From IMG/VR virus record IMGVR_UViG_3300036828_000667, positions 32,001 to 96,000 of that record: a stretch of DNA of 64,000 nt; one strand, 5' to 3'. Both the position numbers and the translations under genes were made by a program. Position 1 is the first letter of the stretch; the number at the start of each line of letters is the position of its first letter. This document shows, piece by piece, positions 1,671-33,436 of this stretch. The notes below the pieces were generated by a model. It was not told where the DNA came from. It saw only the letters and a program-made list of their open reading frames with translations, and made no database searches. This DNA comes from a virus.

Positions 1671-1714
1671 TGCATAAGCTCATTAGACCTGTACCTGTGA
1701 CTTCGATAGGAGTT

Positions 1715-2278: not shown

Positions 2279-2435
2279 AACCGCTCACCACACCTAACCC
2301 CAAGGGGAGGCTCTGGACGGGCTTTCCCGTGGCCCTGTGGGGGGTAGCTGGGGAGCCGGAAATCTGCACTGGCGGGCTTCTAAGCAGAGCCTGGACCCAC
2401 TTGCCATCCAATAGATCCATGGGGTAAGAACAATA

Positions 2436-2515
2436 TGCATACCGCCCCTCTCCAGGCCGCTGCACGGCATACCGAACCGCCCCTGCCCTGACCAAAGCAC
2501 ACCGCACCATACTTT
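2436..2515 (+). ncRNA. Pentamer-code unit (NCC/NGC-NN)n, stand-alone
   Basis: TGCAT ACCGC CCCTC TCCAG GCCGC TGCAC GGCAT ACCGA ACCGC CCCTG CCCTG ACCAA AGCAC ACCGC ACCAT ACTTT; upstream TTGCCA(2401)-N18-TAAGAA(2425). Confidence 0.75.
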
Positions 2516-2537
2516 CTCCCTTTTTCATCACCCAACT

Positions 2538-2906
2538 TTATTCCTTTTTATTGAGACAAGCCTTGTCATCAGGGTATCGGCCACAGAAAGCTTTTGCTTG
2601 TTCCATGATCCAATCACGTCCCTGGTCTTGTGACATATCTTTCCAGCTTTTAGTAACTGTCACGGTCTTAGTTCTGTATTGAATAGTAGGTTTAGGAGTA
2701 GGCTTAGGTTCACGGTATTCACGCTCACGATGATGAACTATCGGTCTGGTAGTATGGTGTCTTGGTTCAGATGTTGGCTGTCGTTCCCGATACTCAGGTT
2801 GCTGAAACGACTGCCAGCAGCCCCACATCCACTGTGGACAGTTCTGGGCGTGAACTGGGCTGACCCCAAACAGGATGAAGACAATAGCTCCGATGACTAC
2901 TTTCAT
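2538..2906 (-). CDS. Hypothetical secreted protein
   Basis: N-terminal signal peptide (MKVVIGAIVFILFGVSPVHA). Confidence 0.55.
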   Translation of the reverse strand: MKVVIGAIVFILFGVSPVHAQNCPQWMWGCWQSFQQPEYRERQPTSEPRHHTTRPIVHHREREYREPKPTPKPTIQYRTKTVTVTKSWKDMSQDQGRDWIMEQAKAFCGRYPDDKACLNKKE

Positions 2907-3014
2907 TTACTCACCAATCTGTCTTCAACCAAAGAAAAAGTAGATAAGCAAAAGAGCCAACACCACAAAAAACAATATAGGAAAAAAAATCGGATTATAG
3001 TTCATCTTATAATC

Positions 3015-3308
3015 CTAGCTCCCTATGATCTTCCACGCGGTTCCGTTATAATAAACTAAAACATGGTTTGACCCACCACCAACCACAACAGTCGAAACAG
3101 TAGTAACTGTCGCATCGGTCACAGGCATGACCATGCCCTCACTTGGTCCTACAGGTAAACCTGACACTAACCCAGCTACAGGAAAATCACATGTATTCAT
3201 ATTATGAAGAGTAGCTTTAAGCCCAGTAACATTAGTACTGGCGTAAATGTTTGGCGTAACGTTAGCTTCGATTTGTCCATCGATATCAGACTTTAGAAAA
3301 GCAGCCAT
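3015..3308 (-). CDS. Small tail-fibre-related protein
   Basis: C-terminal 'VLVYYNGTAWKIIG'; N-terminus resembles N-terminus of the 213-1670 tailspike. Confidence 0.55.
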   Translation of the reverse strand: MAAFLKSDIDGQIEANVTPNIYASTNVTGLKATLHNMNTCDFPVAGLVSGLPVGPSEGMVMPVTDATVTTVSTVVVGGGSNHVLVYYNGTAWKIIGS

Positions 3309-3509
3309 CTAGGTCTCCTTTTGTTGAGTCACGATCTTGGTGATTTCTCTAACAATCGAATGGTATGGACTACCATCATATTCTTCATTGAACTGATTAC
3401 TCAGTCCAACTGCCTCTTCTTTCGAATACGGTCCCTGACAGTTCATCACAGGTTTACTATCAGTATCATGATCAATAATGAGAATAACAAAAGCTGTTTC
3501 CAGTTTCAT
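3309..3509 (-). CDS. Hypothetical protein
   Basis: Tightly packed ORF in a minus-strand operon. Confidence 0.45.
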   Translation of the reverse strand: MKLETAFVILIIDHDTDSKPVMNCQGPYSKEEAVGLSNQFNEEYDGSPYHSIVREITKIVTQQKET

Positions 3510-3512
3510 GAT

Positions 3513-3953
3513 TTAGAAGTCCGCCCCCTGACACTCAATATCTATTTCTTTACCAGTACTTACAGCAGCAATCATACATCTGACCTGGAGAAGATCAGTT
3601 GGATTGAGAAACACAAAAGCCTGGCCAGTTTCGTCTAGTGGCAATGCTGATATGGAATTGAGTAGACTTACCGAAGGTACTGTGCCAATATATCCAGCAT
3701 TGGCTGGGACAGTCACAGTCCCAAGAGGTGTGAAGCCTACTGAGGAGGAGCCTTGATCTGTGATCCCAATCTGAATATCGTGTGCAGACGTATCGTTGTT
3801 GGACGCAATCACAGCATATACTTTGGTAGGGGCTGTACTTCCATTGGTAATTCCACCTAGAGCAACAGTAACTAGATTAAGAGCACTGGTGGGAAGTATC
3901 TTCCCTTTCTGACTCCAAGGAGTCTGTAACGCTGTTGGGACCATATTAACCAT
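3513..3953 (-). CDS. Putative virion structural protein
   Basis: Beta-rich, small-residue composition; GGAG RBS; context among tail genes. Confidence 0.5.
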   Translation of the reverse strand: MVNMVPTALQTPWSQKGKILPTSALNLVTVALGGITNGSTAPTKVYAVIASNNDTSAHDIQIGITDQGSSSVGFTPLGTVTVPANAGYIGTVPSVSLLNSISALPLDETGQAFVFLNPTDLLQVRCMIAAVSTGKEIDIECQGADF

Positions 3954-3997
3954 TAAAGTATCTCCATCTGTTTCAATTTACAGTTGGACTTTTTCAA

Positions 3998-4285
3998 TCA
4001 TGCGAGCCAAATCTCACTCCTATTGTCTAAGGTAATAAGCCCGCTATTAGAGATTGCTTCAATACGATGATATCCAAAAGAATACTTATCGTTTATTGGA
4101 TAACTGGGACAATCAATCTGATTAGAAGTAATCGTAATCCAGTCTCCGGCGTTGAAACCAGACGGAAGAACTGGTACCTTGTCTAGAACTATCTTCTTTA
4201 CAGGCATCAGGGAGCTTGCCCTGACAATAGCAGGAGCTACGAAGAGAGATCCCAATCCAATAAGAAGAGAACGACGAGCAATCAT
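3998..4285 (-). CDS. Small protein with twin-arginine (Tat)-like signal
   Basis: MIARRSLLIGLGSLFVAPAIVRASSLMPV. Confidence 0.55.
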   Translation of the reverse strand: MIARRSLLIGLGSLFVAPAIVRASSLMPVKKIVLDKVPVLPSGFNAGDWITITSNQIDCPSYPINDKYSFGYHRIEAISNSGLITLDNRSEIWLA

Positions 4286-4327
4286 GGCCTTTCCTTACAA
4301 CATTAGAAGAACCTTACCGGCATAACG

Positions 4328-4900
4328 TCATGCGCCTAAGACTTTACGCATTCGTTTTTTAAACTCAGGTTGTTTCAATCTAGCCTGATAATGCGTTATT
4401 GCATTTGGATTTTCAAAAGTATGAACACGATGAAGATTTTCAGGGTCATAAATAATATGAGAGAAGGAGCCTACATCCTCTTCCTGATTTTTATAACGTA
4501 CCGAAGATATCCCTTTATTCTTAAGCAACCTTCCAACAATAGAGTCATGATCATGAGGATGATTTTTAAGACTAGCCTGAAGATTCTCATGTTCATTCTT
4601 GGTAATCGTACCCATAGAGTGTAATTTTTTGACAATATGAGGAGCAGGAGATTCATCTCCCCAGGTGTCTTCAACGTCAATAGACTTACCTGACGGTTTA
4701 TATTTGTAAGCACGAATCTCAGTATCATGCCTACTCCCAACACCTTGGATTATATTTTTTGCTGCATCAATCGATCCAAAATGTGATCCAGGATTGGGAG
4801 CACCAAACTTCTTATATGTCCCGTGATAAAGGAGGGTGTCCCAAGAAGATTCGGCTAGTCTAGCATCTACTAAACTACGAATGATGTCTATCGTTCCCAT
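4328..4900 (-). CDS. ADP-ribosyltransferase-like protein
   Basis: 'LYHGT', 'HFGSIDAA' and 'GISSVRYKNQEE...SHIIYDPEN' motifs resemble phage ART (ART-PolyVal-like) domains. Confidence 0.5.
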   Translation of the reverse strand: MGTIDIIRSLVDARLAESSWDTLLYHGTYKKFGAPNPGSHFGSIDAAKNIIQGVGSRHDTEIRAYKYKPSGKSIDVEDTWGDESPAPHIVKKLHSMGTITKNEHENLQASLKNHPHDHDSIVGRLLKNKGISSVRYKNQEEDVGSFSHIIYDPENLHRVHTFENPNAITHYQARLKQPEFKKRMRKVLGA

Positions 4901-6055
4901 TTACCGCTCCTGTCAACTTAGGACCGATGGAGATCTTGGTAACTCTATGTTATGTTACCTTCCCCAGTTTCTTACTGTAATACAGAACGATATGACAGCC
5001 AATGCAATGGCTAGACAGATTTTGTATACAGTCCAATCCAGATTGGTGTCGCGGACTACATCCAACATACTAGAAAAGCAGAATGCGAGAGCGAGGATCA
5101 TACCTATGACTGCTACACGCTCTCTATACAGAATGACACTATCCTGCCTTGTCATATACGAGTCTGACTGTTCCATGGCCAATCAACCTATGATAATTGA
5201 TCAAACCCTCTCTTACTAACTCTAACTTATCGAAGGATAGTATCTGTTCGGCAATCACCAGTTTCTTCCCAAAGTCAACGTATATAACATCCGAGGTAGA
5301 TACGAATGGTTTTTGATCACACACTTTCGTCGTCCAGAAATTTGAGCTTTGGTAATGTTGGTTTCTTCTTATTCCTTCTCCCAGATGAGAGCCCTTCATT
5401 CGCACGAAGAATTTTAAGAACATAAAGATCTTTTTTTGATATGAATCCATAGTCAGGGTAGATCCCATGTCTTTCTCGAAATGCATTAATCCTATTCATT
5501 CCGTCCTGAGATACATACTTATTGCGATGACGCCTGTGAATACTAAGCGTTGACTCTGTTGGCTTTAAAAAAGGAACTGAGCACTTCCTAGGACCAATCT
5601 GGTCCAGACCAGCTTTAAGGTTCTTAGACATGGGGATCACACACTTTCATTGAAATCCTTCTGCGGTCCTCTCTGTCTTTTCGGCTGACCATATTGCCGT
5701 ATAGCAATATCACTAACTGTAGCTATATTGGTGTTGTGTATCCTAGCAATATTCCTAAGAAGTTCCTTGTTAGAATACCTTTTGACTATATCGTGTTTTT
5801 CACTATCAGTGAATTTACGCACTCGTCTGAACTTCTTGACGTAAGGCATGCTAGCTCTCGTCTGGTAGTTTAAGCTTGTCCCTTCTGGCCATCACTTTGA
5901 TTGTTTTAGCGATAAGAGGTACATCCTCAGGCGAACAGTTCAGTTTCTCTAATGCTCTTCTGAAATAATGATCGAAGTGACTGTGGTGAATACCAGTTAG
6001 CCTACATATTCTCGCTTTGTAAGCTTTGTTGAGATTAAGGGACATTGTTACAGCC

Positions 6056-6571
6056 TTATTGAGACCGGTAGCCCAGCTGATCAAGTCTACTCGATATGTT
6101 ACTGTAGACAAGATTGTCGATACCCGTAATATAGTCCAGCGTTTTGTTATGACAGTTGAAAGCGAACACACGCCATGTAACCTTATTAGTTAAGGCTAAT
6201 AGATCGGTCCCGAAGACCTCGACAAAGGATAGGAACAGACTAGCGTTATCAGACTTAGCACTATAGTATTGGCTTAAGACAAACTCATCAAACTCCTCCG
6301 AAAAAGCGGAGAACACCTTCAGAGCAAAACTAGAAATATCAGGAGTGTTATCAGGAACACGGATATCGACTGGGATATCTAGCTTATAGATAAGAGGTGC
6401 AGCCTTATCAAGACCATCTATCTCAGCTTCTTTGAGAGAGATACCACGAGAAACTGGGGAAAGGAATAACCTGCAATCAGCCTTGTCAAGGATCAAAGAG
6501 AGTTCATCGATCTCGGTGTAATCTGTAATTACAGTACCATCAGAAAACTGTACGACTTTATTACAACTCAT
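6056..6571 (-). CDS. Hypothetical protein
   Basis: 171-aa ORF overlapping neighbours in an operon. Confidence 0.5.
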   Translation of the reverse strand: MSCNKVVQFSDGTVITDYTEIDELSLILDKADCRLFLSPVSRGISLKEAEIDGLDKAAPLIYKLDIPVDIRVPDNTPDISSFALKVFSAFSEEFDEFVLSQYYSAKSDNASLFLSFVEVFGTDLLALTNKVTWRVFAFNCHNKTLDYITGIDNLVYSNISSRLDQLGYRSQ

Positions 6572-7077
6572 TCCGATCTAGTCTCAGTACAAGCATAAGG
6601 TCCAGCTATACGATTAGCTGCCTCAACATAAGCTTGATGCGCTTCGTCTGGCGTATTAAATGTACCAAGACAAATGTATTTATTATCACGCTTGATTCTA
6701 GCCTGCCATCTATTACCGTTAGCCACTACACCTTTCAGTCCACTGGTAGTATTCTTACGCACACTGTTATAACGATTTTGCGAAGTAGTTGCTGGACGTA
6801 GGTTTGTCCAAATATTATTTGCCTTATTCCTATCTTTGTGATCAATTTCATCTTCTGGCCATTCTCCTTTCATCCACAACCAGATGATACGATGTACCTT
6901 ATAATCCTGTCCTTGATATCTAACTACCACATATCCGAACTTATGAATACGACCTGCCTTAGATCCTATAGGAGTGTTCTTCCTAGGCCTTATTGTCCAG
7001 ATCAGATCACCGGTCAATGGATTGTAATGAAAAATCTCTCTGACAGTATCTGCTGTCAGATCATTTACATATTCCAT
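6568..7077 (-). CDS. HNH homing endonuclease with AP2 domain
   Basis: 'VHRIIW...IDHKDRNKANN..NLR' HNH motif plus 'SGLKGV...WQARI...LGTFNTPDEAHQAY' AP2 motif. Confidence 0.9.
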   Translation of the reverse strand: MEYVNDLTADTVREIFHYNPLTGDLIWTIRPRKNTPIGSKAGRIHKFGYVVVRYQGQDYKVHRIIWLWMKGEWPEDEIDHKDRNKANNIWTNLRPATTSQNRYNSVRKNTTSGLKGVVANGNRWQARIKRDNKYICLGTFNTPDEAHQAYVEAANRIAGPYACTETRSE

Positions 7078-7098
7078 ATTCTGTTTTTCCTCTGATGG

Positions 7099-7269
7099 TC
7101 AATCACGGATGAAACGCTGGATGACAAGTTGATTATTTGACAAGGATGCTTTATACCTACCGTCATCGCCAATCTTTTCACAGATTTGACGAGCCTCAGA
7201 ATCAGTAACACTGTCCTCCTTGATCCCAAGTTGAACTTTAGTCACGTGATCCGCTGACACTAGCACCAT
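7099..7269 (-). CDS. 56-aa hypothetical protein, paralog of the C-terminus of 7402-7920
   Basis: Read manually: MVLVSADHVTKVQLGIKEDSVTDSEARQICEKIGDDGRYKASLSNNQLVIQRFIRD. Confidence 0.55.
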   Translation of the reverse strand: MVLVSADHVTKVQLGIKEDSVTDSEARQICEKIGDDGRYKASLSNNQLVIQRFIRD

Positions 7270-7314
7270 GACCTAACATCCCTCTTGACTTTCAGACTGA
7301 CCTATGCTCACATC

Positions 7315-7386
7315 ACCACTTCACCCCGAACCGACCCGAACCATGCCACCCCGATCTGCACCCGTCCGCTCCATACCACACTTTTT
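7315..7386 (+). ncRNA. Pentamer-code unit, stand-alone
   Basis: ACCAC TTCAC CCCGA ACCGA CCCGA ACCAT GCCAC CCCGA TCTGC ACCCG TCCGC TCCAT ACCAC ACTTTTT; upstream TTGACT at 7285 (weak -10). Confidence 0.75.
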
Positions 7387-7401
7387 ATATCACACATATA
7401 T

Positions 7402-7920
7402 TCATTCGGCGGACCACTGGATGATAAGCTTGTCGTTAGATAGACCAGCCTTGAAACTGCGATTATTGGCGATTTGTTCGACTATCTGTCTGGCACGAAC
7501 AATGGTCACTTCTTTTTCCATGATTCCTAAAGCTTCACGAATAGACTTACCTACCCGCACCTTAATCATACCACTACTCCTTGTCGTGCCATCCGAATTC
7601 AACCTACGTCTCCACTCAAGATTACTAGGACGGTTATCAAACCTAATATCATTCAGATGTTTAGCCATATACCCAGGTTTTTTAACCTGTCCAGTGAACG
7701 CAGATAATATAAACCAATGAGAAAGGTAACGACGATAGTGTTTTATAACTACCAAATAACCATCAGGGGTAAGAGTTTGTATTCTAAGTTCTGTCTTCTC
7801 TACGACTCTATGGCCAACGATACCACCCGGTAACACTCTAATACGACCATGATCAGAAGCTTGGTGATAAGGCCAATCTGGAATGTCTTTCCAGATCTCA
7901 CCCTTGTGTCCCCGAATCAT
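7402..7920 (-). CDS. NUMOD4/HNH endonuclease (degenerate) fused to a small phage domain
   Basis: 'EIWKDIPDWPYHQASDHGRIR' NUMOD4; 'KHLNDIRFDNRPSNLEW' HNH. Confidence 0.7.
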   Translation of the reverse strand: MIRGHKGEIWKDIPDWPYHQASDHGRIRVLPGGIVGHRVVEKTELRIQTLTPDGYLVVIKHYRRYLSHWFILSAFTGQVKKPGYMAKHLNDIRFDNRPSNLEWRRRLNSDGTTRSSGMIKVRVGKSIREALGIMEKEVTIVRARQIVEQIANNRSFKAGLSNDKLIIQWSAE

Positions 7921-8137
7921 CTTTCATACTCATGGGGGGGGGTTCCGTATCACACCATTCGGAGTGAGCATGTAATAGATCACTCTCGGCTCGTGTGAAG
8001 AATATCGTCCCACCAAGGTCACGACCTAACAATTTCTCTGCTTCGTCCCGTGGAATGTAACCTATCGGCTTTTTGTCGTCATCGGTCGCAAAGACAGAGT
8101 TCTTCCAACTCTTTTCAATAACTAGCCATTCTCTCAT
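7898..8137 (-). CDS. Hypothetical protein
   Basis: ORF with GGGG-type RBS, operon packing. Confidence 0.45.
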   Translation of the reverse strand: MREWLVIEKSWKNSVFATDDDKKPIGYIPRDEAEKLLGRDLGGTIFFTRAESDLLHAHSEWCDTEPPPMSMKDDSGTQG

Positions 8138-8180
8138 CGGTCACCCCTTGACTTCCAAACCAACCCATGCTTACGTGACC

Positions 8181-8229
8181 GTCTATCCCATCCGAACCAG
8201 TCCAATCCTATCCTATGCACACCGCACAG
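8181..8229 (+). ncRNA. Pentamer-code unit, stand-alone
   Basis: GTCTA TCCCA TCCGA ACCAG TCCAA TCCTA TCCTA TGCAC ACCGC ACAG; TTGACT(8148)-N18-TACGTG(8172); hairpin follows. Confidence 0.75.
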
Positions 8230-8264
8230 AATGACCTAAGAGAAATCTTAGGTCATTCGCTTTT
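8229..8264 (+). terminator. Hairpin with GAAA tetraloop after pentamer unit
   Basis: GAATGACCTAAGA-GAAA-TCTTAGGTCATTC (perfect 13-bp stem) followed by GCTTTT. Confidence 0.75.
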
Positions 8265-8476
8265 CAATCAGTGTCATAACCATCTGCGCTATAGTAGTTA
8301 TTTTCGTGGTACGGACACTCTTCTCTCATGAGAGCTAAGCAACGGCGAATAGATGCACTGCTTGTCCCATAGGACTCAACCACGTGGTCGCACCTTGAAC
8401 AAGTAACCTTGACACTGGGAACTTCCCCGTGATCACCTTCCAATTCGATTTCATCTATGGTACATTTTACCTTCAT
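8264..8476 (-). CDS. Hypothetical Cys-containing protein
   Basis: CSRC and RRCL..MREECP motifs. Confidence 0.5.
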   Translation of the reverse strand: MKVKCTIDEIELEGDHGEVPSVKVTCSRCDHVVESYGTSSASIRRCLALMREECPYHENNYYSADGYDTD

Positions 8477-8728
8477 GGCGCATCGTCAGGCCAGTATTTG
8501 AACTGGTTCCTAGATTGCCAATTATATATAGGTTGCCAGATCCCAATCTTCGCTAGTAGCTTCAAATACAATGGAGCGGCAGCATGACAAGCAACTAGCA
8601 TCTGATCGTAATGATCGTTGTGAGCCTTGATCCGGTCAAGAAAGGGAGTCTCTCCCTTCGTATGTTCACCGATTGATCCCATATCCCCCTCCACTTGACT
8701 CACAAAGATTATTTGGCTACTATCCAAA

Positions 8729-8781
8729 CGCGAGCCAAACCGGTCCACTCCACGCCCCTCCTTCGCTTACCGATCCACACA
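8729..8781 (+). ncRNA. Pentamer-code unit, stand-alone
   Basis: CGCGA GCCAA ACCGG TCCAC TCCAC GCCCC TCCTT CGCTT ACCGA TCCAC ACA; promoter TTGACT(8695)-N17-TACTAT(8718). Confidence 0.75.
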
Positions 8782-8811
8782 GAATGGCCTGAGAGAAATC
8801 TTGGGCCATTC
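8782..8811 (+). terminator. Hairpin with GAAA tetraloop, homolog of the 8229 hairpin
   Basis: GAATGGCCTGAGA-GAAA-TCTTGGGCCATTC; 13 bp including two G.U pairs on the + strand. Confidence 0.7.
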
Positions 8812-8920
8812 GCTATTCCATTGCCTTCACGGTAAAGATTTCGTCAACCTGACCACCACACGTGCAAGGCCAGTATCTCATAATTTAGCATTTGCGTTCA
8901 CCACAAACCTTCGTCATTGT

Positions 8921-9196
8921 CTAATTCACGTTTCTGTCCACCACAATCGGGACGTTATCCAGGTCACGAGTAAGTCTAATCGTATCGTAAAAATCTCGTT
9001 CCTCGTCATCCGTAAGTGTATTACCAAACTCTCCATGTGCCAAACCAAGCTCGAATGAGTCAAGTAGTTCTGTCTTACCAAACTTCTCTACTATGTGTGC
9101 AACAACACGGTCTTTCATAGCATCGCTACCTGAGGAAAGTCGGATGAACTTTTCCCAGGTTTCGAAAGATACCATATGGCCGTACAGGTGCATCAC
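8921..9196 (-). CDS. Hypothetical protein
   Basis: 91-aa ORF in a minus-strand cluster. Confidence 0.4.
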   Translation of the reverse strand: MMHLYGHMVSFETWEKFIRLSSGSDAMKDRVVAHIVEKFGKTELLDSFELGLAHGEFGNTLTDDEERDFYDTIRLTRDLDNVPIVVDRNVN

Positions 9197-9271
9197 TCAC
9201 TGTAGCACACAGCACAACCATGTCCAGAGACTTGACACCTAGCTATGGAATGCTTGAACTACGCACCGTCG

Positions 9272-10384
9272 TCATGGCGTCGAATAGGTCCAGGTGTTGA
9301 TCAGCAACGGCGAAATCCCAGAGATGCCGGTCGCCGCTACAATACCGACCCAAGCCATGGAACCGCCAACGGCCGTTGGAATATCGATACCGGTCCAGGT
9401 ATGCGTGTAACAAGTCTCTCCGGGACAGACACCGTCGGCCGTTACATCATACATGCTGAGCGTCAGCTTGCTACCATCGTAAACGGTCGTCGCCGAGTAG
9501 ACATGCCCAGTCGTGGTGTTTTGCTTATTGCTTGGCGAATTAAGGGCCACTGGACTTGTAGAAAGCTTGTCGACACCGACATAATGATAGTTGGTGCCAC
9601 CCTCACCAGGAATACACGGCGACTGTCCCGGTGCGACATTGCCGGGCGGTTGGGTGTCGGTGCGATAAATCTGCACCGACGAATAAACGAAATCCCAGGA
9701 ACTTGCGACCAGTGGGCTGTAACTATCAAGCTCAAGAGCAAATACACGATCCGGCGGCTCCGGCTGGCTCCAGCCCTGGAAAAATCCAGCCTCGCAACCT
9801 GCACCACCCGAAAAGTGCTTGCCGTTGAAACCCGCAGGATTGTTGGTCGAATTTTGCACGACGAACGCCACATTCTGGCCGTTCGGCACAAAAGTAAACG
9901 TAGATTTGAAGGCTCTCGCGTCTACCTGCGTTTGATAGATCAGACTGGCCCCAATATGCGATAGATTGGCAGGGATCAAATTAACCTGATTGCCCGACAA
10001 TCCCATGCCGTTGGAACCGCTTGCCCAGAATTTCTGCTCGCCACCGGCACTGGGAAATTGCACCCCGCACGAGCCGGACGAAGAGAAGCCAGCCGAGCAG
10101 TCGAATGCAACGACACCCGTGGGTGGCTCGATTGGTTCGATCGGCGGCCGTTCCGGTCGGACACACGGTACTGCTGCAACGTCTACCATGCACAACTGGA
10201 GCTTCTTACCGCCGACTGCAGCATCGGAAGGACACGGCACGGCCGTACCGCCGGTAATGCAAATATTGATGGTCTGGGCATGTGCTGGCCACAACCAAAG
10301 CATTCCGCATATCGCTAACAAGACAACAAAGATGAAAAAGCTCAAAAGACGTTTTTCTTTCTGCAGATTCATGGCAATCCCCAT
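9272..10384 (-). CDS. L-type (legume/ConA-like) lectin-domain exported protein
   Basis: N-terminal TM/signal; 'FKSTFTF...AFVVQN', 'VFALELDSY', 'YDGSKLTL', 'DIPTAVGGSMAWVG..AATG' L-lectin motifs; visibly GC-richer than its flanks. Confidence 0.7.
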   Translation of the reverse strand: MGIAMNLQKEKRLLSFFIFVVLLAICGMLWLWPAHAQTINICITGGTAVPCPSDAAVGGKKLQLCMVDVAAVPCVRPERPPIEPIEPPTGVVAFDCSAGFSSSGSCGVQFPSAGGEQKFWASGSNGMGLSGNQVNLIPANLSHIGASLIYQTQVDARAFKSTFTFVPNGQNVAFVVQNSTNNPAGFNGKHFSGGAGCEAGFFQGWSQPEPPDRVFALELDSYSPLVASSWDFVYSSVQIYRTDTQPPGNVAPGQSPCIPGEGGTNYHYVGVDKLSTSPVALNSPSNKQNTTTGHVYSATTVYDGSKLTLSMYDVTADGVCPGETCYTHTWTGIDIPTAVGGSMAWVGIVAATGISGISPLLINTWTYSTP

Positions 10385-10396
10385 TCGATTCCTTCA

Positions 10397-10430
10397 ACCA
10401 GTGCACAGCGCAGCATACCGCACTTTTTAT
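10397..10430 (+). ncRNA. Partial pentamer-code unit (3' end only)
   Basis: ACCAG TGCAC AGCGC AGCAT ACCGC ACTTT TTAT; same downstream 'CTTTTTATATCAC' as the 7315 unit. Confidence 0.55.
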
Positions 10431-10461
10431 ATCACCTAGAGAACACTACTATCATTCAGAA

Positions 10462-10659
10462 CTATCCAACAACCCACGCCGTACCATTGAAAAACACAGG
10501 CACAACCACGGCACCTCCACCAGTAAGAACCGCACCAAATGCTGGTGTTGTGGCATCCGTCACGAAGGCTCGATCACCGGGTTGGAGATTGGTAGTCGGT
10601 ATAGCCTGCAACGCCGCAACCGTATACCGCTTTTCACCGCCAAGGATGTTGGTCGCCAT
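10462..10659 (-). CDS. Small tail-fibre C-terminal-like module
   Basis: 'YTVAAL...RAFVTDATTP.FGA..TGGGAVVVPVFFNGTAWVVG', similar to the C-termini of 213-1670 and 3015-3308. Confidence 0.6.
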   Translation of the reverse strand: MATNILGGEKRYTVAALQAIPTTNLQPGDRAFVTDATTPAFGAVLTGGGAVVVPVFFNGTAWVVG

Positions 10660-10711
10660 GGAGAACTCCTTTCATTTGACCTTTGAAGACTACTGTTTAA
10701 CTCTTTTTCTT

Positions 10712-11245
10712 TTATTCAAACCTAGCAAAGGAACCAGCTATACGATCAGCAGCTTCAGCATATGCCTTAGCCGCATCCTCAGGCTTATCGAAACAACCCA
10801 AGTGAATTGTTTTACCTGCGTGTCCAATACAAGCTCTCCATTTATCCTTATGACGCCAGACACCCTTAAAACCACTTGTGTTATTCTTCTGCTTTGAACG
10901 ATTATACTTATTCTGTATATCGGTTGCTGAACGGAGATTGTCCCATATATTATTAGCCCTATTTAAATCCTTATGATCAATCTCATCTTCTGGCCAGCTT
11001 CCTGTCATCCAAAGCCATATAATACGATGCACACGATAACTCTGTCCACAAATCTCAACTTGTATATACCCATCGCTGCAAAGACCACCTGCCTTGTCTC
11101 CAGCCATAGCATTACTTGATCGTCCAACTTTCCATGTAAGACAACCAGTCATTGGATCATAGTCAAATAATTGTCTGACTAACTCAAATGTCATACTTTC
11201 TTCAGGCATCTCCACGTCGTTAATAATACAGGAAAGCTCAGTCAT
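10712..11245 (-). CDS. HNH-AP2 homing endonuclease
   Basis: 'VHRIIW...IDHKDLNRANN..NLR' plus AP2 'SGFKGV...LGCFDKPEDAAKAY'; start taken at the internal Met 11245 (uncertain). Confidence 0.88.
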   Translation of the reverse strand: MTELSCIINDVEMPEESMTFELVRQLFDYDPMTGCLTWKVGRSSNAMAGDKAGGLCSDGYIQVEICGQSYRVHRIIWLWMTGSWPEDEIDHKDLNRANNIWDNLRSATDIQNKYNRSKQKNNTSGFKGVWRHKDKWRACIGHAGKTIHLGCFDKPEDAAKAYAEAADRIAGSFARFE

Positions 11246-13203
11246 GGTTCCAAACTTCCTAGTTTTACTATATAGTCTTATAACCCATGTTTTTAGATAG
11301 GTAAGCGTAGCTGACCTGTCATCAAAGCTGACCTGGACCCCGGCAGACCCCATCTGGCACCCTCCCGGAGCCCTCAGACTGGACAAAGACTATAAAATAA
11401 AGTTACTTTACAACAGACAGCAAGATAGAAATCTCAACCAGAGTTTCTGATTGAGATCCCTCACATCAACTTTCTCACAGTCTCTGCAAGTTTCTCTCGT
11501 GGTACCGAAGCCAACTGCCGGAATATATCATCGACAGGAACCTTCTTCGCCATGGCAATCTCGTTGGAAATTTCGCTGATATGGGCCAAATATTCATAAT
11601 GCGACATCGTAGTAGTCTCCCTTAGTGTAAGGCCATGCATGGTCGATAGGAAACCCAGGAAGGTCTCCCTTGTTGCCAACTTCATGGTCCGTACGAGGTA
11701 GCTCACCCACGGTCTCCATTCACGACCTTTTACAAAAAAGGTCTTTGCAGTGGTCAATCGATCAATCGAGCCACTGGCTATTCTCTTTGCTGTCCCACGT
11801 CGTTCTTTTCTTTGTCTGTCTGTCACTCTACTTATCGATTGGCAAGACGCCAAACCTGAGTCTTGTAGGCAAACCGGTCAACACTCATGACCCTTCAAAG
11901 GCGTGAACCTTCTCTTTAGGTCCCACCTTCAGGTCCTCCCTAGGTCCGGCCTAGATCCCTCCTTACAACACATTGCACATCTCCGACAACCATGAAAACA
12001 ACAAAAAGTTTCAATTTTCCTCGACAGCCTCTCGGATGGCAAACTGTAGAGCTTCGATCGTAGGAATGATCTCCATTAGCTCCTCCAGGTTTGTATCAAC
12101 CAAGTCTTCATGCTGTCCGTCTTCAATCAATCTATAAGAAGTAGTCAAGGTACGTCTGAAAGAAGCGAACCTCTTGCATGTCTCAATATGGTTTTCAGCC
12201 AGTTCTATAGTTAGTTGTTTCATGTAGTAGGTTTTCCTGTTGTGCTAGTTTAACTGAGATAAGGGCGGTAGGTCCCCTCGATCCCTCCCCAGCCCAGCCC
12301 CTCCCGGCATTGTCAAGCCTGTACTGTGTATAACATGTGAAATTTGGCATTTGCAAGGCTTTGGGAACCATGCTACGGTATGTACCTGAAAATCGAGGTC
12401 AGACTTCCTCTGAGAAGCCTGAGTTATTACTATTGCCAAAGACCATAAGTCAAAACTACTACCAATTAACTATAGGAGATTTGCCGGTACAATTGTCCCA
12501 CCAAATCCGAATACAACTCAGAGGTGTAATTGCTTGTAATTGCTATCCTAGCCTGGGAGAGCGGTAGGGAGCCCTGTGGTTAATCCGACTCGCACCCCTA
12601 CCCTTGTCAGGCTGGTCACTGAAATCATCACCAGCGGCCTTCCCTGGAGCTTGACGGAGGGATCGAAATGAAACCGATGTGGTGTAGCTACTGCGGCTCT
12701 AAGAACCATACCTATCGGCTATGCCCATTATAGCATGTCCAAAGACCCATATCAGTACTGCTAACCGTGATCCAGACCATTATGTGAAGGATAAATCCTA
12801 ATGAACCATATGAGAAACTTTAGCACCGTTATCGATAATGGAAAAGTCCTATACATCTGGGGTAGTTCCAGGATAGTAGGATGGCTTCTGACCAACATCA
12901 TCGTAGCAATAATAGCATGGTTTGGAGTAGCTTGGATTACATAAGACAGCTGCGAAGGGGGAGGGGGTTATGGCTTATCAGTCCATCGAAAAGTGCATTC
13001 TAGACTGTTCTGATTTAGTCAAAAGAGGCATCACGATCCACCAGAAGTGGACGTGTCACGAGCCCTAATACAATTCACTACTCAGGACGATGTGAAAAGT
13101 GTAAGAAAGCGAGTCGTATCAAGGAATGCGGCTATATAACAAGTCGAACTCTGGTAGCTGATATATCCTTGGAAAAGATCAGAATTAAAGTTATCAAATA
13201 AAG

Positions 13204-13467
13204 ATGGACCGGGGAATGAAGATGGCGATGGCGAATAAAGAAGATGATGAAGAAATCAGATATGTCATCGAGCCACACAATGTCAGACCTAAACAGAAAG
13301 TCGTTACGGTCTATTGTGGTAACGAACTGATATGTTCGTTCTATATGCACTCATATGAGAATAGACAGTTCTGTGTATTTATGTCAAAGTATCTAGGCGA
13401 GGTTTACACTGATCTAAAGAATCCAATGGCACCAGGGCTTATCATTGAACTTTCCCAAAAGAAATGA
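13204..13467 (+). CDS. Hypothetical protein
   Basis: ORF in plus-strand cluster. Confidence 0.45.
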   Translation: MDRGMKMAMANKEDDEEIRYVIEPHNVRPKQKVVTVYCGNELICSFYMHSYENRQFCVFMSKYLGEVYTDLKNPMAPGLIIELSQKK

Positions 13468-13493
13468 CACTCAGATTCGAAAGGTCAATAGAT

Positions 13494-13633
13494 AAAGTAT
13501 GGTGTGGTATGCTGCGGTGTGGTTCGAGGGGCCGCGGGCTGGTTTGGTTAGGGTTGCAGAACACAGTATGAACTAAAGTATGGTGCGGTATGCTGAGGAT
13601 TGCGATGGTCTGCGCTGGGTCGCTGTGCTAGGC
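13494..13633 (-). ncRNA. Two tandem pentamer-code units (13494-13557, 13575-13633)
   Basis: + strand AAAGTATGGTGTGGT... and AAAGTATGGTGCGGT... (reverse complement ends ACCRC ACCAT ACTTT); minus-strand promoter TTGACT(13668-63)-N17-TATGGC(13645-40). Confidence 0.75.
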
Positions 13634-14367
13634 AGACAAGCCATACCAAACGGTGGATTCGGAGTCAAGGGAGAATGACGATGATAATAGAGCTTCCTGT
13701 CACGATCGTTTGGGACTGGGAAGGCAACCGTTCCCTCGGTAAACATCGCAGGCTACGTCGGACATTCACAGTACGCATGAGCACCCAGGATGATGCTGGA
13801 CCACTAACTTATTGCACCGAATACCCACCTAGAGAGAATTCAAGATGGCAAGTCGACCATGGTGTACTATCGACATTGCTAAGCAATGAAGCTAATAGTG
13901 AAATATGCATGCGTGCGGTAGATGATCCAGAAGGCTATGAACCACAGTATCTAAAGGAGTAGTCAATGGGAACACGTAAGTCACCTAGTCGATTTGATGT
14001 GGATCTGTCAAAGTTGGACGAGGACGAACCTTTTTTTATACTCAGGGGCAATGACGAGTTGGCCGCAGAACTCGTTAGGGATGAATCACGATAAAGTTCT
14101 CGCGGCCTATCAATGTGCCGAAGACATGAGGAGGTGGAACAAGAGAAAGACACCAGACTAAACCTATTAATTTTTGGAGGGGAGAATGATTACTAGGAAA
14201 GAAGTGATTAAAAGACTACAGGATCAATTACAGTGGAGGTCCCACACCGGGAGATTGATGGGGCAAGTAATGGTACCAAGAGAGCATGCTGAGTTTATAA
14301 TAGAAAACTTGATCCATCTGACAGAGCTACATCCCAACGAGAAAACATTCTAAAATGGAGAGAACCA

Positions 14368-14877
14368 ATGCAAGCTACCTTCCACCAGTTCATCGATAAA
14401 ATCAGAGTCGAAACACTCCGAACGTTCAACGAAAATGGAAGTATACACCCAACATGGTTTTTACAAGAAGAGGATGGCCAGATCCTACTTGTGGCCACAC
14501 CATATACAGATGATCTGACAAAAGACATGGTAGACTTCGCCATTAGAGAAGCCATCAGAATTAAGCATATCCAACGCTACGCGTATATTTCAGAAGTTTG
14601 GATGGCATTTCAAAAAGATTTGACTTCACTAGAAGACTACAAGGGACTAAGACCAAGCCAAAGACCTGATCGGAAAGAAGCATTGATGTTTATAGCAGAA
14701 GACATTTCAGGAGACTATATAATGTCGTACTCTGATATCTACAGAGACTCCAAAACTGACCTTGCTATGATTGCTGAGATCAAGATAGACGGAAAAGAGG
14801 TAGACCCAGATACTCTTAAAGGACGTTTTGTAAAAATGTTCAAAGGAAGGAAGAAGCCCTCAGGCTCGCCACACTAG
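14368..14877 (+). CDS. Conserved phage hypothetical protein
   Basis: 'YAYISEVWM...RPSQRPDRKEALMF.AE' motif; GGAG RBS. Confidence 0.6.
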   Translation: MQATFHQFIDKIRVETLRTFNENGSIHPTWFLQEEDGQILLVATPYTDDLTKDMVDFAIREAIRIKHIQRYAYISEVWMAFQKDLTSLEDYKGLRPSQRPDRKEALMFIAEDISGDYIMSYSDIYRDSKTDLAMIAEIKIDGKEVDPDTLKGRFVKMFKGRKKPSGSPH

Positions 14878-15183
14878 CTAGATCAGCGCTAGAAGGTTAC
14901 TGCCGAGAGCTATAGTGAAAAGGCTTCACCTAATCTTCGTCCTCACAGGTTTCAGGAGTACATAGGTAGCACTCTGTCCGTCGGTGGTGAATAAACCAGC
15001 ACCTTCCGCAGTACCACTTACCGTCGTCCCCCTTCATGGGTTGAGGCTTCTCGCAGTCCCGCGGACAGTGGTAGTGATCAGCTTTCATACTCACCGCTCC
15101 GCAGAGTTCGTCTTTGACCATAATTTAGGACAGCTTTCTCCGAAGAGGACCATCCTTCCTTACCCCATATCTCCATTAAGTAC

Positions 15184-15391: not shown

Positions 15392-15433
15392 CCAAAAAGA
15401 CTACTACCAAACTTACCGCTAGTCAACCACTAT

Positions 15434-16479: not shown

Positions 16480-16622
16480 TCCACCTCGACCGGTTTCACA
16501 TTTCTTAACAATGTCGAGTTCCATACACAAAACAGTTGATTGTAACAAGGGGCAAGTCTAAGATCAGAAAACTGCCTGTACAGTATAAAATCTGAATCAC
16601 CTAAATAAAGAGGGCCACAAAG

Positions 16623-17877: not shown

Positions 17878-17907
17878 GGACTACGCTGTCTCTTATTCTC
17901 AGGGACT

Positions 17908-31409: not shown

Positions 31410-31479
31410 GTCGAACCGCTGCCTTGCTTGCCAAACCGGGCCAAGCCGGCGCGGACCAAACCTCCGCACACCGCACAAT
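31410..31479 (+). ncRNA. Pentamer-code unit in the leader of the Cas7-like gene
   Basis: GTCGA ACCGC TGCCT TGCTT GCCAA ACCGG GCCAA GCCGG CGCGG ACCAA ACCTC CGCAC ACCGC ACAAT; followed by a 13-bp hairpin at 31477-31514. Confidence 0.8.
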
Positions 31480-31533
31480 GGGAGTAGTCAAATGGCTTGC
31501 AGACTACTCCCATTAACACAGGAGTAAAACAAC

Positions 31534-32175
31534 ATGCTAATTTCAGTCACGATCTCCGGAATCCGACCTTTAATCCTCGACGCGTTTTCCGAGGAAGCGT
31601 TGCTTAAGGGGAAGGGAGGAAAGAGTACAGCCCAGCCCAAGGAACTGAGTCCCTTGGATCAAGCCAAGCGTAGGTTATACTATAATGGAGATGGTACCGA
31701 CGTTCCTATATTCCCAGCAGACAACCTACTCAGCTGTATCATCGCTGCCGGGCGGTTTATCAAGGTCGGGAAAAGGCAACTAACTACTCGCGACAGTACG
31801 ACAGTAACTTCATTCCTACAGATATCAGAACTATATCTTCCCATTAGGTCGATAGATGGATGGCGAGTCGACTCCAGGAGCATCGTCAACCCGTCTACAA
31901 AAGGTCGTCACATATGCTACCGTCCCATCTTTGACGACTGGGAGTTAGATTTCACGCTCGACATCGATACGAATGAAGCGAGCGACAGCTTGGTTAGACA
32001 GTTGATTGATAGAGCAGGTAGGTTTATCGGGATCGGGGTCATGCGGCCCGAAAGGAAGCGGCAGTATGGGCAATACGTGGTGCGCTGCTGGGATTGCCGT
32101 TCAGAACATGAAGAGCTTGACAACATACCAAAACTTGCTAAGAAAACTAAGACTAGATCGAAAGAACTAGTCTAA
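31534..32175 (+). CDS. Cas7/RAMP-like putative RNA-guided effector protein
   Basis: Beta1 'ISVTISGIRPLIL'; 'PIFPADNLLSCIIAAG' (RAMP P.IP...LK motif); 'RPIFDDWELDFTL'; C-terminal Gly-rich loop 'GIGVMRPERKRQYGQY'; GGAG RBS; flanked by pentamer units. Confidence 0.7.
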   Translation: MLISVTISGIRPLILDAFSEEALLKGKGGKSTAQPKELSPLDQAKRRLYYNGDGTDVPIFPADNLLSCIIAAGRFIKVGKRQLTTRDSTTVTSFLQISELYLPIRSIDGWRVDSRSIVNPSTKGRHICYRPIFDDWELDFTLDIDTNEASDSLVRQLIDRAGRFIGIGVMRPERKRQYGQYVVRCWDCRSEHEELDNIPKLAKKTKTRSKELV

Positions 32176-32186
32176 CACTGGTTCAT

Positions 32187-33422
32187 CGCGGACCGTACCG
32201 GAGCGTGCCATGCCCGTCCCCGCCGAGCCCGACCAAACCAGACCCAACCTACGCGGACCCAGCCTATCCTTAGCGTAGCACACCGCACAGTTAAGGCCAA
32301 AACCAGAAGGAAGGAGATACGGAAATGAAACCACGCATCTCCTTCCTTCAAACCCAAGTTTCGAACAATCCATGCCACTGCAAACCGCGCCAGCCCTATG
32401 CCTACCACTGTGAACCGCTCCACACCATTCTTTTATCAATTATCAAGTCAACACTCCGAACCAGACCCCGCCTTACCCAACAGCACCCCACCAAACCGGA
32501 CCGACCCACTCCAATGTGCACCTCAGCAGACCGAAGCACACCATACTTTATCAATTGCCTTCCCGACCCGAGCTATGCCCAACCGACCCGACCCACTCCG
32601 GGCCGCACCCCTCCCTCCCATCCCGCAGCACACCATACTTTATTTCATTACGACTCTCCGGCCCTACGCCAACCACACCAGCCCGGAGCGTGCCATACCG
32701 CACCATACTTTTATCATTTCAATGCGCACCGTCCCTCACCGTGCCATCTCTCACCCGACCATACCATCCCTCCCCACCTCGGCCCGGACCCCGCCGATGC
32801 AAACCACACCATACTTTATCAATTTTCAGAACCATCCCGACCGTACCAGTGCGCGCCATTCCAATGCAGCCCTCGCCTCCGCATGTCAGGCCGCCCCGAC
32901 CCATGCCGCACCAAACCACACTTTCTTTATCAACTAAGGAGAACCAGCATGACCACACATCGTCCCACATTCGAAGACTGGCAGCTAGACTTCACTTTGG
33001 ATTATAATGAAACTGAAATAGATGAAGGTACTATACGTAAGCTAATCGAAGTAGTAGCTGGAACGCACATAGGACTTGGCTCTATGCGCCCAGAACGACA
33101 TGGACCCTATGGACAGTTTAAGATCAAGGAATGGACTCCACATTCTTAGTCTTATCCATCTCTGCTTACCGTAGCCCTCATCACCGCACCCGTGAGCACC
33201 GACCCATGCCTGAGCCTACCTCAGCATACCCAACCGCAGCAACCCGGTGCGAACCAAACCACACTATTTTTTATACAATTTCAACTTACCGTCCCGGCCC
33301 GAGCCAGTCCATCGTGCGCCGACCCGTCGCTCCCCATACCGCACTATACTTTATTCATTACCAACCATGCCATACCATGCCATTCCGGAACGCTGCCCTC
33401 CGGTCCACACCACACTTTCTTT
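32187..33422 (+). repeat. Array of 10 pentamer-code units (candidate guide-RNA array)
   Basis: Units at about 32187-32289, 32369-32434, 32455-32549, 32557-32641, 32657-32712, 32723-32817, 32830-32928, 33163-33272, 33283-33352 and 33364-33422; each (NCC/NGC-NN)n, most ending in an ACCAT-ACTTT-like tail plus an AT-rich linker. Confidence 0.88.
32949..33149 (+). CDS. 66-aa mini-paralog of the C-terminal third of the Cas7-like protein
   Basis: AAGGAG RBS; MTTHRPTFEDWQLDFTLDYNETEIDEGTIRKLIEVVAGTHIGLGSMRPERHGPYGQFKIKEW aligns with RPIFDDWELDFTLDIDTNEASDSLVRQLIDRAGRFIGIGVMRPERKRQYGQYVVRCW. Confidence 0.75.
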   Translation: MTTHRPTFEDWQLDFTLDYNETEIDEGTIRKLIEVVAGTHIGLGSMRPERHGPYGQFKIKEWTPHS

Positions 33423-33436
33423 AGGAGTTTAACCAG

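What the first reader, a model, noticed from the sequence alone, without database searches (positions are those of the whole stretch)
8148..8811. Covarying GAAA-tetraloop hairpins fix the RNA strand as the CC-rich strand
Units 8181 and 8729 are followed by homologous 13-bp stems: GAATGACCTAAGA-GAAA-TCTTAGGTCATTC and GAATGGCCTGAGA-GAAA-TCTTGGGCCATTC. They differ by one compensatory A-U to G-C change and two changes that give U.G and G.U wobbles. These pair only on the + strand (they would be A.C mismatches on the minus strand). Together with promoter orientation, this indicates the RNA reads (N)CC-NN, not GGY-NN. If the related system I recall uses GGY/NN guides, this would be a complementary-motif variant, or these RNAs could be antisense partners.
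Basis: seen in the sequence. Interest (0 to 1): 0.75.

Follow-up and report, generated by a model that had tools for sequence, protein, structure and literature searches.

The report
C-type VIPR guide-RNA genes with terminator hairpins
The two hairpins close two small guide-RNA genes of a phage VIPR system (a CRISPR-related, RNA-guided gene silencer described in 2026), and they help show that this phage makes its guides from the C-rich strand, with N-C-C in place of the published G-G-Y scaffold.

Summary
Two homologous 13-bp GAAA-loop hairpins lie at 8229-8258 and 8782-8811. They differ by one compensatory pair and two changes that give G.U pairs on the + strand only.

They end two stand-alone guide-RNA (vrRNA) genes of a VIPR system. 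Its Vipr protein gene lies at 31534-32175, in a 114-kb soil phage.

The hairpins alone are weak strand evidence (P about 0.11 under a transitions-only null). Stronger evidence agrees:
- An exact TTGAC[AT] box lies upstream of 14 of 20 units on the C-rich strand.
- Nearly all close relatives' loci carry C-type units on the vipr strand, often running straight into the vipr ribosome-binding site.
- The G-loop residues that hold the guanines in SUSP1 Vipr (D177, W178) are V-M here.

In a common register the scaffold runs G-G-Y, then N-G-C, then N-C-C. The last C is therefore the canonical pyrimidine, not a complement of GG. The "antisense partner" reading is not supported.

Each guide spells a segment of the neighbouring gene. 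The third variable base behaves like a synonymous codon base, which hints that it is read.

No RNA data exist. This scan has met C-rich VIPR arrays before in other genomes. Verdict: a new variant of a known kind.

The parts
8148..8177 (+). Promoter of vrRNA gene A: -35 box TTGACT at 8148-8153, a 17-18 nt spacer, and a weak -10 box (TTACGT at 8171-8176 or TACGTG at 8172-8177).
   Evidence: Sequence. An exact TTGAC[AT] lies at the same distance upstream of 14 of 20 units on the C-rich strand. The weak -10 box fails the strict scan.
8179..8228 (+). Guide part of vrRNA A. Pentamers are CCGtc TATcc CATcc GAAcc AGTcc AATcc TATcc TATgc, followed by the handle ACAcc GCAca. The triplets spell (P)YHESNYY(TA).
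   Evidence: The best match in the genome is the adjacent own gene.
8229..8268 (+). 13-bp stem with GAAA loop (8229-8258), then GCTTTTCAAT. This is the terminator-like 3' hairpin of vrRNA A. Its T-run overlaps the stop codon of the convergent ORF 8264-8476(-).
   Evidence: The terminator scan picks it up on the + strand only.
8288..8311 (-). Own-genome site that resembles guide A: YHENNYYS, near the C-terminus of ORF 8264-8476(-).
   Evidence: 6 of 8 residues and 14 of 16 NN bases match, and 5 of 8 third bases differ.
8695..8723 (+). Promoter of vrRNA gene B: TTGACT-17-TACTAT.
8727..8781 (+). Guide part of vrRNA B: ten pentamers spelling NEKGTTPFLD, then the degenerate handle ACACA (CCACAC in place of CCGCAC).
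8782..8822 (+). 13-bp stem with GAAA loop (8782-8811) holding two G.U pairs, then GCTATTCCATT, a weak U-tract. This is the 3' hairpin of vrRNA B.
8635..8664 (-). Own-genome site that resembles guide B: HTKGETPFLD, in ORF 8473-8685(-).
   Evidence: 7 of 10 residues and 13 of 20 NN bases match.
31534..32175 (+). vipr gene, 213 aa, a Cas7-like RAMP protein. Its G-loop reads GIGVMRP.
   Evidence: A profile of the clade hits PDB 36pp 'SUSP1 Vipr protein' at E = 1e-14. The AlphaFold2 model has mean pLDDT 84.6. The top Foldseek hits are Csm3/Cas7.
31410..31516 (+). vrRNA unit plus 13-bp hairpin directly upstream of the vipr RBS. It spells EALLKGKGGKST, which is Vipr residues 21-32.
32185..33425 (+). 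Array of about ten C-type vrRNA units directly behind vipr. It is interrupted by a C-terminal remnant of a second vipr gene (about 32955-33149).

Best explanation
Positions 8148-8268 and 8695-8822 are two paralogous stand-alone vrRNA genes of a VIPR system, transcribed from the + (C-rich) strand.

Each gene has four parts:
- a sigma-70-type promoter;
- 8-10 pentamers of the form N1N2-N3-[C>G]-C;
- a short conserved handle (CCGCAC or CCACAC);
- a 13-bp GAAA-loop hairpin.

I infer that the hairpin ends and stabilises an RNA of about 80-90 nt and keeps transcription from running antisense into the convergent gene.

By analogy with published VIPR, one Vipr protomer (gene at 31534-32175) binds each pentamer. 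It hides the N3-C-C scaffold and presents N1N2 for pairing with double-stranded DNA. This silences genes whose codons match.

The two guides match segments of the adjacent genes, ORF 8264-8476(-) and ORF 8473-8685(-). The most likely targets are rival relatives' alleles of those genes. The phage's own copies differ at third codon positions and at a few first or second positions.

Shown by computation: the anatomy, the strand signals, family membership of the protein, and the scaffold series.

Inferred, not shown: transcription itself, termination at the hairpin, Vipr loading, and the identity of the targets.
For: Strand:
- An exact TTGAC[AT] lies 30-45 nt upstream of the first pentamer on the C-rich strand in 14 of 20 units. 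The expectation is 0.066 per unit. On the G-rich side it is 2 of 20.
- Nearly all close-relative (V-M clade, 50% identity or more) loci carry C-type units on the vipr strand next to vipr; L010 shows none.
- The handle ACCGCAC occurs 32 times on the vipr strand and 5 times on the other. In L007, L016, L021, L022 and L023 it is followed directly (about 10-50 nt) by the RBS and ATG of vipr. The C-rich strand must therefore be part of the vipr transcript.
- Cultured-phage relatives (E. coli phage ESCO50, Mycobacterium phage Quico, Gordonia phage Pipp) have G-type arrays on the vipr strand.
- Among strong hairpins that follow a handle, G.U pairs number 5 and A.C pairs 0. L009 has a textbook terminator after its unit.
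- Copy 2 of the hairpin folds 5.5 kcal/mol better on the + strand.

Protein correlate:
- SUSP1-type G-loops read GVGDWRP. D177 and W178 contact G1 and G2 (10.64898/2026.04.26.720927).
- This clade reads GIGVMRP.
- Across 55 further loci, no Vipr with a D-aromatic G-loop has CC on its own strand, and no V-M Vipr has GG there.

Scaffold series on the vipr strand, same register:
- G-G-Y;
- (G>N)-G-C;
- N-(C 0.7-0.8, G 0.2-0.3)-C.

Code:
- Nine unit/own-gene pairs match at codon position 1 in 85 of 116, position 2 in 97 of 116 and position 3 in 31 of 116.
- Nine of about 30 units have their best genome-wide hit within about 500 nt.
Against: - No RNA data exist for this phage, so transcription, RNA ends and Vipr binding are all unobserved.
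- The -10 box of unit A is weak. The U-tract of copy 2 is poor and fails the terminator scan.
- Hairpin copy 1 folds equally well on both strands.
- The G-rich strand is co-oriented with the flanking genes. It is probably present in cells as part of their mRNA.
- The link between the G-loop change and the scaffold change rests on a single clade, which is one evolutionary event.
- No foreign allele that matches either guide was found.
- No conserved vap gene lies next to vipr.
Confidence: 0.85

Rival explanations
1. The functional guide is the G-rich (-) strand. On this reading it is a canonical-looking GG-N-NN vrRNA, co-transcribed with or processed from the minus-strand operon. The hairpin and handle would then be a 5' element.
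For: The reverse complement reads (GGNNN)n, which resembles the published 'NNNGG' class (10.64898/2026.04.26.720920, Methods). The G-rich strand is co-oriented with the flanking minus-strand genes. Hairpin copy 1 folds on both strands.
Against: - There is no promoter enrichment on that side: 2 of 20 against 14 of 20.
- Arrays of all relatives are co-oriented with vipr and run into its RBS.
- The conserved element would sit at the 5' end, unlike the 3' tail of known vrRNAs.
- Copy 2 would carry two A.C mismatches.
- Vipr here lacks the D-W residues that contact guanine.
- On the vipr strand the register series is continuous with canonical arrays.
Confidence: 0.05
2. The C-rich strand is the vrRNA, but the guides regulate the phage's own neighbouring genes, as timed self-repression, rather than silencing rival alleles.
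For: The guides sit next to the genes they match. Five own-gene matches reach 80% NN or more. They include 21 of 22 for unit 15329, 32 of 36 for unit 32185 and 18 of 20 for unit 31413. The published work found no self-hits at that level. Guide A matches its own gene at 14 of 16 NN bases.
Against: - The remaining NN mismatches fall largely on Leu, Ser and Arg six-fold codon swaps.
- Third bases keep the codon class in 42 of 46 cases but are identical in only 14 of 46. Overall identity is 21 of 75 against 31.7 expected, P = 0.004. This looks like avoidance, not matching.
- Guide B matches its own gene at only 13 of 20 NN bases.
Confidence: 0.15
3. The hairpin is not mainly a terminator. It is a structured 3' tail needed for Vipr loading or for capping the filament, like the pseudoknot tail of SUSP1 vrRNAs.
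For: Six solo units have an unrelated strong stem starting 0-7 nt after the handle. This conserves position and structure without conserving sequence. The U-tract of copy 2 is poor.
Against: Most units, including all array units, have no hairpin. They end in CCGCACCATACTTTAT instead. The hairpins are therefore dispensable for Vipr binding. Hairpins occur where a solo unit needs its own transcript end. L009 and unit 25199 have classic terminators.
Confidence: 0.2

Closest known systems
Type II VIPR of Escherichia phage SUSP1 and the P. fulva prophage (bioRxiv 10.64898/2026.04.26.720920; structures 10.64898/2026.04.26.720927; PDB 36pp)
   Same: Both have a lone Cas7-like Vipr protein. Both have guide RNAs of about 100 nt made of 5-nt repeats plus a 3' element. 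Both have one unit upstream of vipr and an array downstream on the same strand. In both, the variable dinucleotide lines up with codon positions 1-2 and the gap with the wobble base.
   Different: The scaffold is N-[C>G]-C rather than G-G-Y. The G-loop residues D177 and W178 are V and M. The tail is a short handle with or without a simple hairpin, not a pseudoknot. About 20 solo units are scattered over the genome. No vap gene was recognised.
VIPR classes with YNNNG / NNNGG / NNNNG repeats (Methods of the same preprint) and non-canonical motifs such as GAC/NN and CAC/NN (bioRxiv 10.64898/2026.10.21.760802)
   Same: They relax the first scaffold base. The nearest out-group here (Vipr 37-44% identical, G-loop GDFRP or GDYRP) has N-G-C arrays, which is the YNNNG class.
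   Different: In this clade the remaining G is replaced by C. An N-C-C scaffold is not named in the text of either paper that I could read. The figures were not available to me.
Solo vrRNAs of SUSP1-family phages and satellites (bioRxiv 10.64898/2026.10.15.759431)
   Same: These are stand-alone guide genes outside the array. Some are aimed at relatives' vipr genes, and their self-match is lower than their match to rivals.
   Different: Here the solo units coexist with an intact vipr gene. Each has its own promoter. Each sits beside the own-genome allele of the gene it matches.
Cas7/Csm3 backbone subunits of class 1 CRISPR effectors
   Same: They share the RAMP fold (Foldseek E about 1e-6) and the logic of one protomer per periodic RNA segment.
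   Different: There is no CRISPR array, no other cas genes and no 6-nt period.
Rho-independent terminators
   Same: There is a stable stem-loop at the 3' end of a short transcription unit. Copy 1 is followed by a T-run and is called by the scan on the + strand.
   Different: The stems are AT-rich (5-7 G-C pairs out of 13). Copy 2 lacks a good U-tract.

Membership tests
VIPR system | A Vipr protein: a minimal RAMP with RRM core, G-loop and thumb, homologous to SUSP1 Vipr. | tested here: met
   A profile of 38 clade members hits PDB 36pp 'SUSP1 Vipr protein' at E = 1e-14 over residues 16-184. BLASTP against the ESCO50 and Quico Vipr proteins gives E = 3e-10 and 4e-10. The AlphaFold2 model has pLDDT 84.6, and its top Foldseek hits are Csm3/Cas7.
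VIPR system | Guide RNAs built of tandem 5-nt repeats, with fixed scaffold bases alternating with variable bases, followed by a conserved 3' element. | tested here: met
   There are 29 units and 397 pentamers. Position 4 is C in 0.79 and G in 0.19; position 5 is C in 0.97. The 3' handle CCGCAC is conserved.
VIPR system | The scaffold motif is GGY. | tested here: not met
   The scaffold is N-[C>G]-C. Only the pyrimidine at the third scaffold position is kept.
VIPR system | Guanine-contacting G-loop residues (D177 and W178 of SUSP1 Vipr). | tested here: not met
   These residues are V169 and M170 in this protein and are nearly invariant in its clade. R171, the equivalent of R179, is kept.
VIPR system | vrRNA units adjacent to vipr and on its strand. 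| tested here: met
   In the window, unit 31410 lies upstream and the array 32185-33425 lies downstream, both on the + strand. Nearly all close relatives' loci show the same.
VIPR system | The variable dinucleotide pairs with the target and one target base is skipped, at the codon wobble position. | tested here: inconclusive
   Own-gene matches run at 73%, 84% and 27% for positions 1, 2 and 3, which fits NN reading. But the third base keeps the target's purine/pyrimidine class in 42 of 46 cases. No external target was found.
VIPR system | An accessory vap gene next to vipr. | tested here: not met
   Apart from vipr itself, no gene is shared next to vipr across 13 loci of the clade. ORF 33437-33682 has an HNH-like match (phrog_374) but is not conserved in that position.
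VIPR system | vrRNAs are expressed, are bound by Vipr, and silence matching DNA. | not testable with these tools
   No RNA sequencing run is listed for this phage.
Rho-independent terminator | A stable stem-loop followed directly by a U-rich tract on the transcribed strand. | tested here: inconclusive
   Copy 1 passes the scan on the + strand only. Copy 2 has the stem (-21.1 kcal/mol), but GCTATTCCATT fails the T-run criterion.

The most novel reading that the evidence does not exclude
In this C-type clade the first scaffold position (G1 in SUSP1) has become a third reading base. The guide would then read whole codon triplets, with 3 of every 5 nt read and no skipped target base, or would at least distinguish purine from pyrimidine at the wobble position.

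That would let a phage tell its own allele from a rival's by synonymous recoding. It would also explain why each solo guide gene sits beside a recoded, immune copy of its target, as a linked 'guide plus immune allele' cassette.

Support:
- The third base keeps the own gene's R/Y class in 42 of 46 split-box codons (P = 5e-9), yet is identical in only 14 of 46.
- Identity is 21 of 75 against 31.7 expected from codon usage, P = 0.004.
- Stop triplets are depleted in this genome's guides, 6 against about 13-15 expected, P = 0.002.
- Unit 15329 matches its own gene at 21 of 22 NN bases, which would be self-targeting under the published rule.

Against:
- Stop depletion was not clearly replicated in relatives' guides (18 against 23.5, P = 0.06).
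- No external target was found.
Probability: 0.3. Interest if true: 0.85.

Novelty: new variant of a known kind. Interest (0 to 1): 0.6.

Why it matters
VIPR was described only in 2026, and every characterised system uses G-based scaffolds. This clade shows that the scaffold letters can change together with two G-loop residues of the protein (D-W to V-M). That gives a natural pair of orthogonal Vipr/vrRNA chemistries. It also gives a direct test of how the scaffold is recognised.

The strand question matters in practice. Reading these arrays on the wrong strand would reverse every predicted guide and target.

The genome-wide scatter of about 20 guide genes, each with its own promoter and each next to a recoded own allele, suggests a form of allele-level warfare between closely related phages. 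If the third base is read, the recognition code itself differs from the published one.

Tried and rejected
- Megablast of 7000-10000 against GenBank phages found no match.
- Rfam at gathering thresholds over the whole window found no family.
- Sequencing runs: no RNA holder is listed. Two soil-metagenome DNA runs hold the stretch.
- Laying their contigs on 1-20000 showed no listed variant in either hairpin. The main X2 contig is identical over 7970-9008. So there was no extra covariation data.
- A scan of viral contigs with the degenerate hairpin pattern found no match.
- Relatives of ORF 8473-8685: none found.
- Relatives of ORF 8264-8476: five loci at 56-61% identity. None carries the YHESNYY allele or a neighbouring unit.
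- The Vipr profile against 185,579 species genomes found no relative.
Large contigs of close relatives could therefore not be fetched to replicate the third-base statistics.
- Cross-targeting among 97 guides from the genome plus the 28 loci held then (L001-L002, L007-L032) gave significant hits only in this phage's own genome.
- Self-locus hits in 55 more loci were few and of the G-type.
- The strict sigma-70 scan found full promoters at only 4 of 20 units, because the -10 boxes are weak. The -35 box alone carries the signal.
- The idea that CC is the complement of GG, or a mirror-image scaffold, was rejected once the register was fixed by target matches and by the relative L050.
- Quintuplet decoding, translation of the units, a TRAP-like protein-binding RNA, and a reverse-transcriptase template were considered early. 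All were dropped once VIPR explained the grammar.

Full report
**Observation.** GAATGACCTAAGA-GAAA-TCTTAGGTCATTC lies at 8229-8258 and GAATGGCCTGAGA-GAAA-TCTTGGGCCATTC at 8782-8811. They sit inside a 47-nt direct repeat that is 85% identical and occurs only twice in the window.

Four stem positions differ. One pair changes on both sides, from A-T to G-C. Two one-sided A-to-G changes give T.G and G.T on the + strand, and these would be A.C mismatches on the - strand. Copy 1 folds about equally on both strands (-20.2 and -19.3 kcal/mol). Copy 2 favours the + strand (-21.1 against -15.6).

With only two paralogous copies this is modest evidence. Four random transitions keep all 13 pairs on a given strand with P = 0.11. 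With any kind of substitution, P = 0.004.

**What the units are.** The hairpins follow tracts with a strict 5-nt period, NNN followed by CC or GC. The 113,838-bp phage genome holds about 30 such units on both strands. Notes from this scan and a literature search pointed to VIPR systems. I read the preprints.

Published vrRNAs have the form 5'-(Y-NN-GG)n plus a 3' tail. Vipr, a minimal Cas7-like RAMP protein, binds one repeat per protomer. It hides GGY and presents NN, which pairs with double-stranded DNA while skipping every third base, usually the codon wobble base.

The ORF at 31534-32175 belongs to that protein family:
- A profile of its clade hits PDB 36pp 'SUSP1 Vipr protein' at E = 1e-14.
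- The AlphaFold2 model (pLDDT 84.6) resembles Csm3/Cas7.
- One unit lies just upstream of it, and an array of about ten lies directly downstream on the same strand.

**Which strand is the RNA.** No RNA sequencing run is listed for this soil-metagenome phage. The question therefore rests on comparative evidence. Five lines agree.

1. Promoters. An exact TTGAC[AT] lies 30-45 nt upstream of the first pentamer on the C-rich strand in 14 of 20 solo or leading units. The chance expectation is 0.066 per unit. The six units without it are mostly second members of tandem pairs. The G-rich side has 2 of 20. The -10 boxes are weak but usually start with TA at a 17-18 nt spacing.

2. Co-orientation with vipr. 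I fetched 28 loci holding Vipr relatives of 40-66% identity. Nearly all of the close ones carry C-type units on the vipr strand next to the gene. In several (L007, L016, L021, L022, L023) the handle ACCGCAC is followed directly (about 10-50 nt) by the Shine-Dalgarno sequence and start codon of vipr. That leaves little or no room for a promoter in between, so the C-rich strand is part of the vipr transcript.

3. Canonical relatives. In cultured phages with Vipr homologues (E. coli phage ESCO50, Mycobacterium phage Quico, Gordonia phage Pipp) the G-type arrays are also on the vipr strand. Co-orientation is thus the rule, and only the letters differ.

4. The protein has changed with the letters. 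SUSP1-type G-loops read GVGDWRP. D177 binds G1 and W178 stacks on G2. This clade reads GIGVMRP, with V and M nearly invariant. Across 55 further viral loci, no Vipr with a D-aromatic G-loop has CC on its strand, and no V-M Vipr has GG there. This is a single clade, so it counts as one event, but it is mechanistically coherent.

5. Other tail hairpins. Among convincing stems of 10 bp or more that follow a handle, G.U pairs number 5 and A.C pairs 0. Several are followed by T-rich tails, and L009 has a textbook terminator.

**Register: not a complement of GGY.** Matches between nine units and nearby own genes fix the reading positions. Variable bases 1 and 2 match codon positions 1 and 2 (85 and 97 of 116). 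Base 3 matches position 3 in only 31 of 116.

A G-type relative (L050) shows the same register as NN-G-G-C. Read on the vipr strand in that register, the scaffold runs as follows:
- G-G-Y with D/E-W G-loops;
- (G>N)-G-C with D-F or D-Y G-loops (the published YNNNG class);
- N-(C 0.7-0.8, G 0.2-0.3)-C in the V-M clade.

The last C is therefore the canonical pyrimidine. G2 has switched to C, and G1 has become free.

**The two units.**
- Unit A has TTGACT at 8148-8153 and a weak -10 box. Its pentamers run from 8179/8184 to 8223, followed by the handle to 8228, the hairpin, and GCTTTTCAAT. That T-run overlaps the stop codon of the convergent ORF 8264-8476(-).
- Unit B has TTGACT-17-TACTAT at 8695-8723, pentamers at 8727-8776, a degenerate handle, the hairpin, and GCTATTCCATT.

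The predicted RNAs are about 80-90 nt long. The terminator scan calls copy 1 on the + strand only. On the - strand no T-run follows either stem.

Most array units have no hairpin and end in CCGCACCATACTTTAT. I therefore read the hairpins as terminator and stabiliser modules for solo genes that point against their neighbours, rather than as a Vipr-binding element.

**Targets.**
- Guide A spells (P)YHESNYY(TA). The adjacent own gene has PYHENNYYSA.
- Guide B spells NEKGTTPFLD. The adjacent own gene has HTKGETPFLD.

Nine of about 30 units have their best genome-wide match within about 500 nt, far beyond chance. No foreign allele matching the guides was found. By analogy with the solo vrRNAs that target relatives' genes, rival alleles are the likely targets. 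Self-regulation remains possible.

**An unexplained regularity.** The third variable base is not free.
- It keeps the own gene's purine/pyrimidine class in 42 of 46 split-box codons, yet is identical in only 14.
- Its identity is below the codon-usage expectation, 21 against 31.7, P = 0.004.
- Stop triplets are depleted in this genome's guides (6 against 13-15, P = 0.002). In relatives' guides the depletion is not clear (P = 0.06).
- Several guides match own genes at 80-95% of NN positions. Under the published rule that would be self-targeting.

A code that also reads the third base would explain all of this. It is not shown.

**Context.**
- The nearest cultured phages by terminase are Pseudomonas phage QdP_Psa3 (37.5%) and Xanthomonas phage phiXF1 (34%). 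Both have genomes of about 114 kb.
- No conserved vap gene was found.
- Other follow-ups in this scan have reported C-rich VIPR arrays in other genomes.

**Verdict.** The strand call is right, with high confidence but without RNA data. The system is a C-scaffold variant of VIPR, which is a new variant of a known kind.

Noticed in passing
window 32955-33149 (+): A C-terminal remnant of a second vipr gene sits inside the array. It reads ...FEDWQLDFTLD...IGLGSMRPERHGPYGQFKIK. Its G-loop is of the S-M type, like locus L041. This suggests an old tandem vipr-array duplication or a capture from another lineage.
   Followed up: partly
window 15329-15393 (-) versus 15626-15664 (-): This guide matches its own neighbouring gene (phrog_7597) at 21 of 22 read positions, while 9 of 11 third bases differ. 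Under the published NN-skip rule this would be a near-perfect self-target.
   Followed up: partly
window 8637-8919: In soil metagenome run X2, one contig from a related strain joins 8637 to 8919. It skips or replaces the 281 nt that hold the promoter, guide B and its hairpin. The cassette may therefore vary between strains.
   Followed up: no
L005:3584-3799 (Gordonia phage Pipp, MN234179.1): A G-type pentamer array directly behind the Vipr homologue gp42 lies under the annotated CDS gp43 (3581-3850). That CDS is probably a mis-called vrRNA array.
   Followed up: no
window 7402-7920 (-) and 33437-33682 (+): A NUMOD4/HNH homing-endonuclease gene lies next to the solo guide units at 7298-8811. 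An HNH-like fragment (phrog_374) lies just behind the vipr array. Mobile nucleases and guide cassettes share these regions.
   Followed up: no
window 17917-17976 (-) versus ORF 17434-17805 (+): This unit matches its neighbour in antisense orientation. Its third base still falls on the gene's wobble position. Either DNA strand can thus be matched, as reported for canonical VIPR.
   Followed up: partly
window 31483-31533: A 13-bp hairpin lies between the upstream vrRNA unit and the vipr RBS, only 17 nt before the ATG. Expression of vipr may depend on read-through or processing at this structure. No clear promoter was seen upstream of the unit.
   Followed up: no
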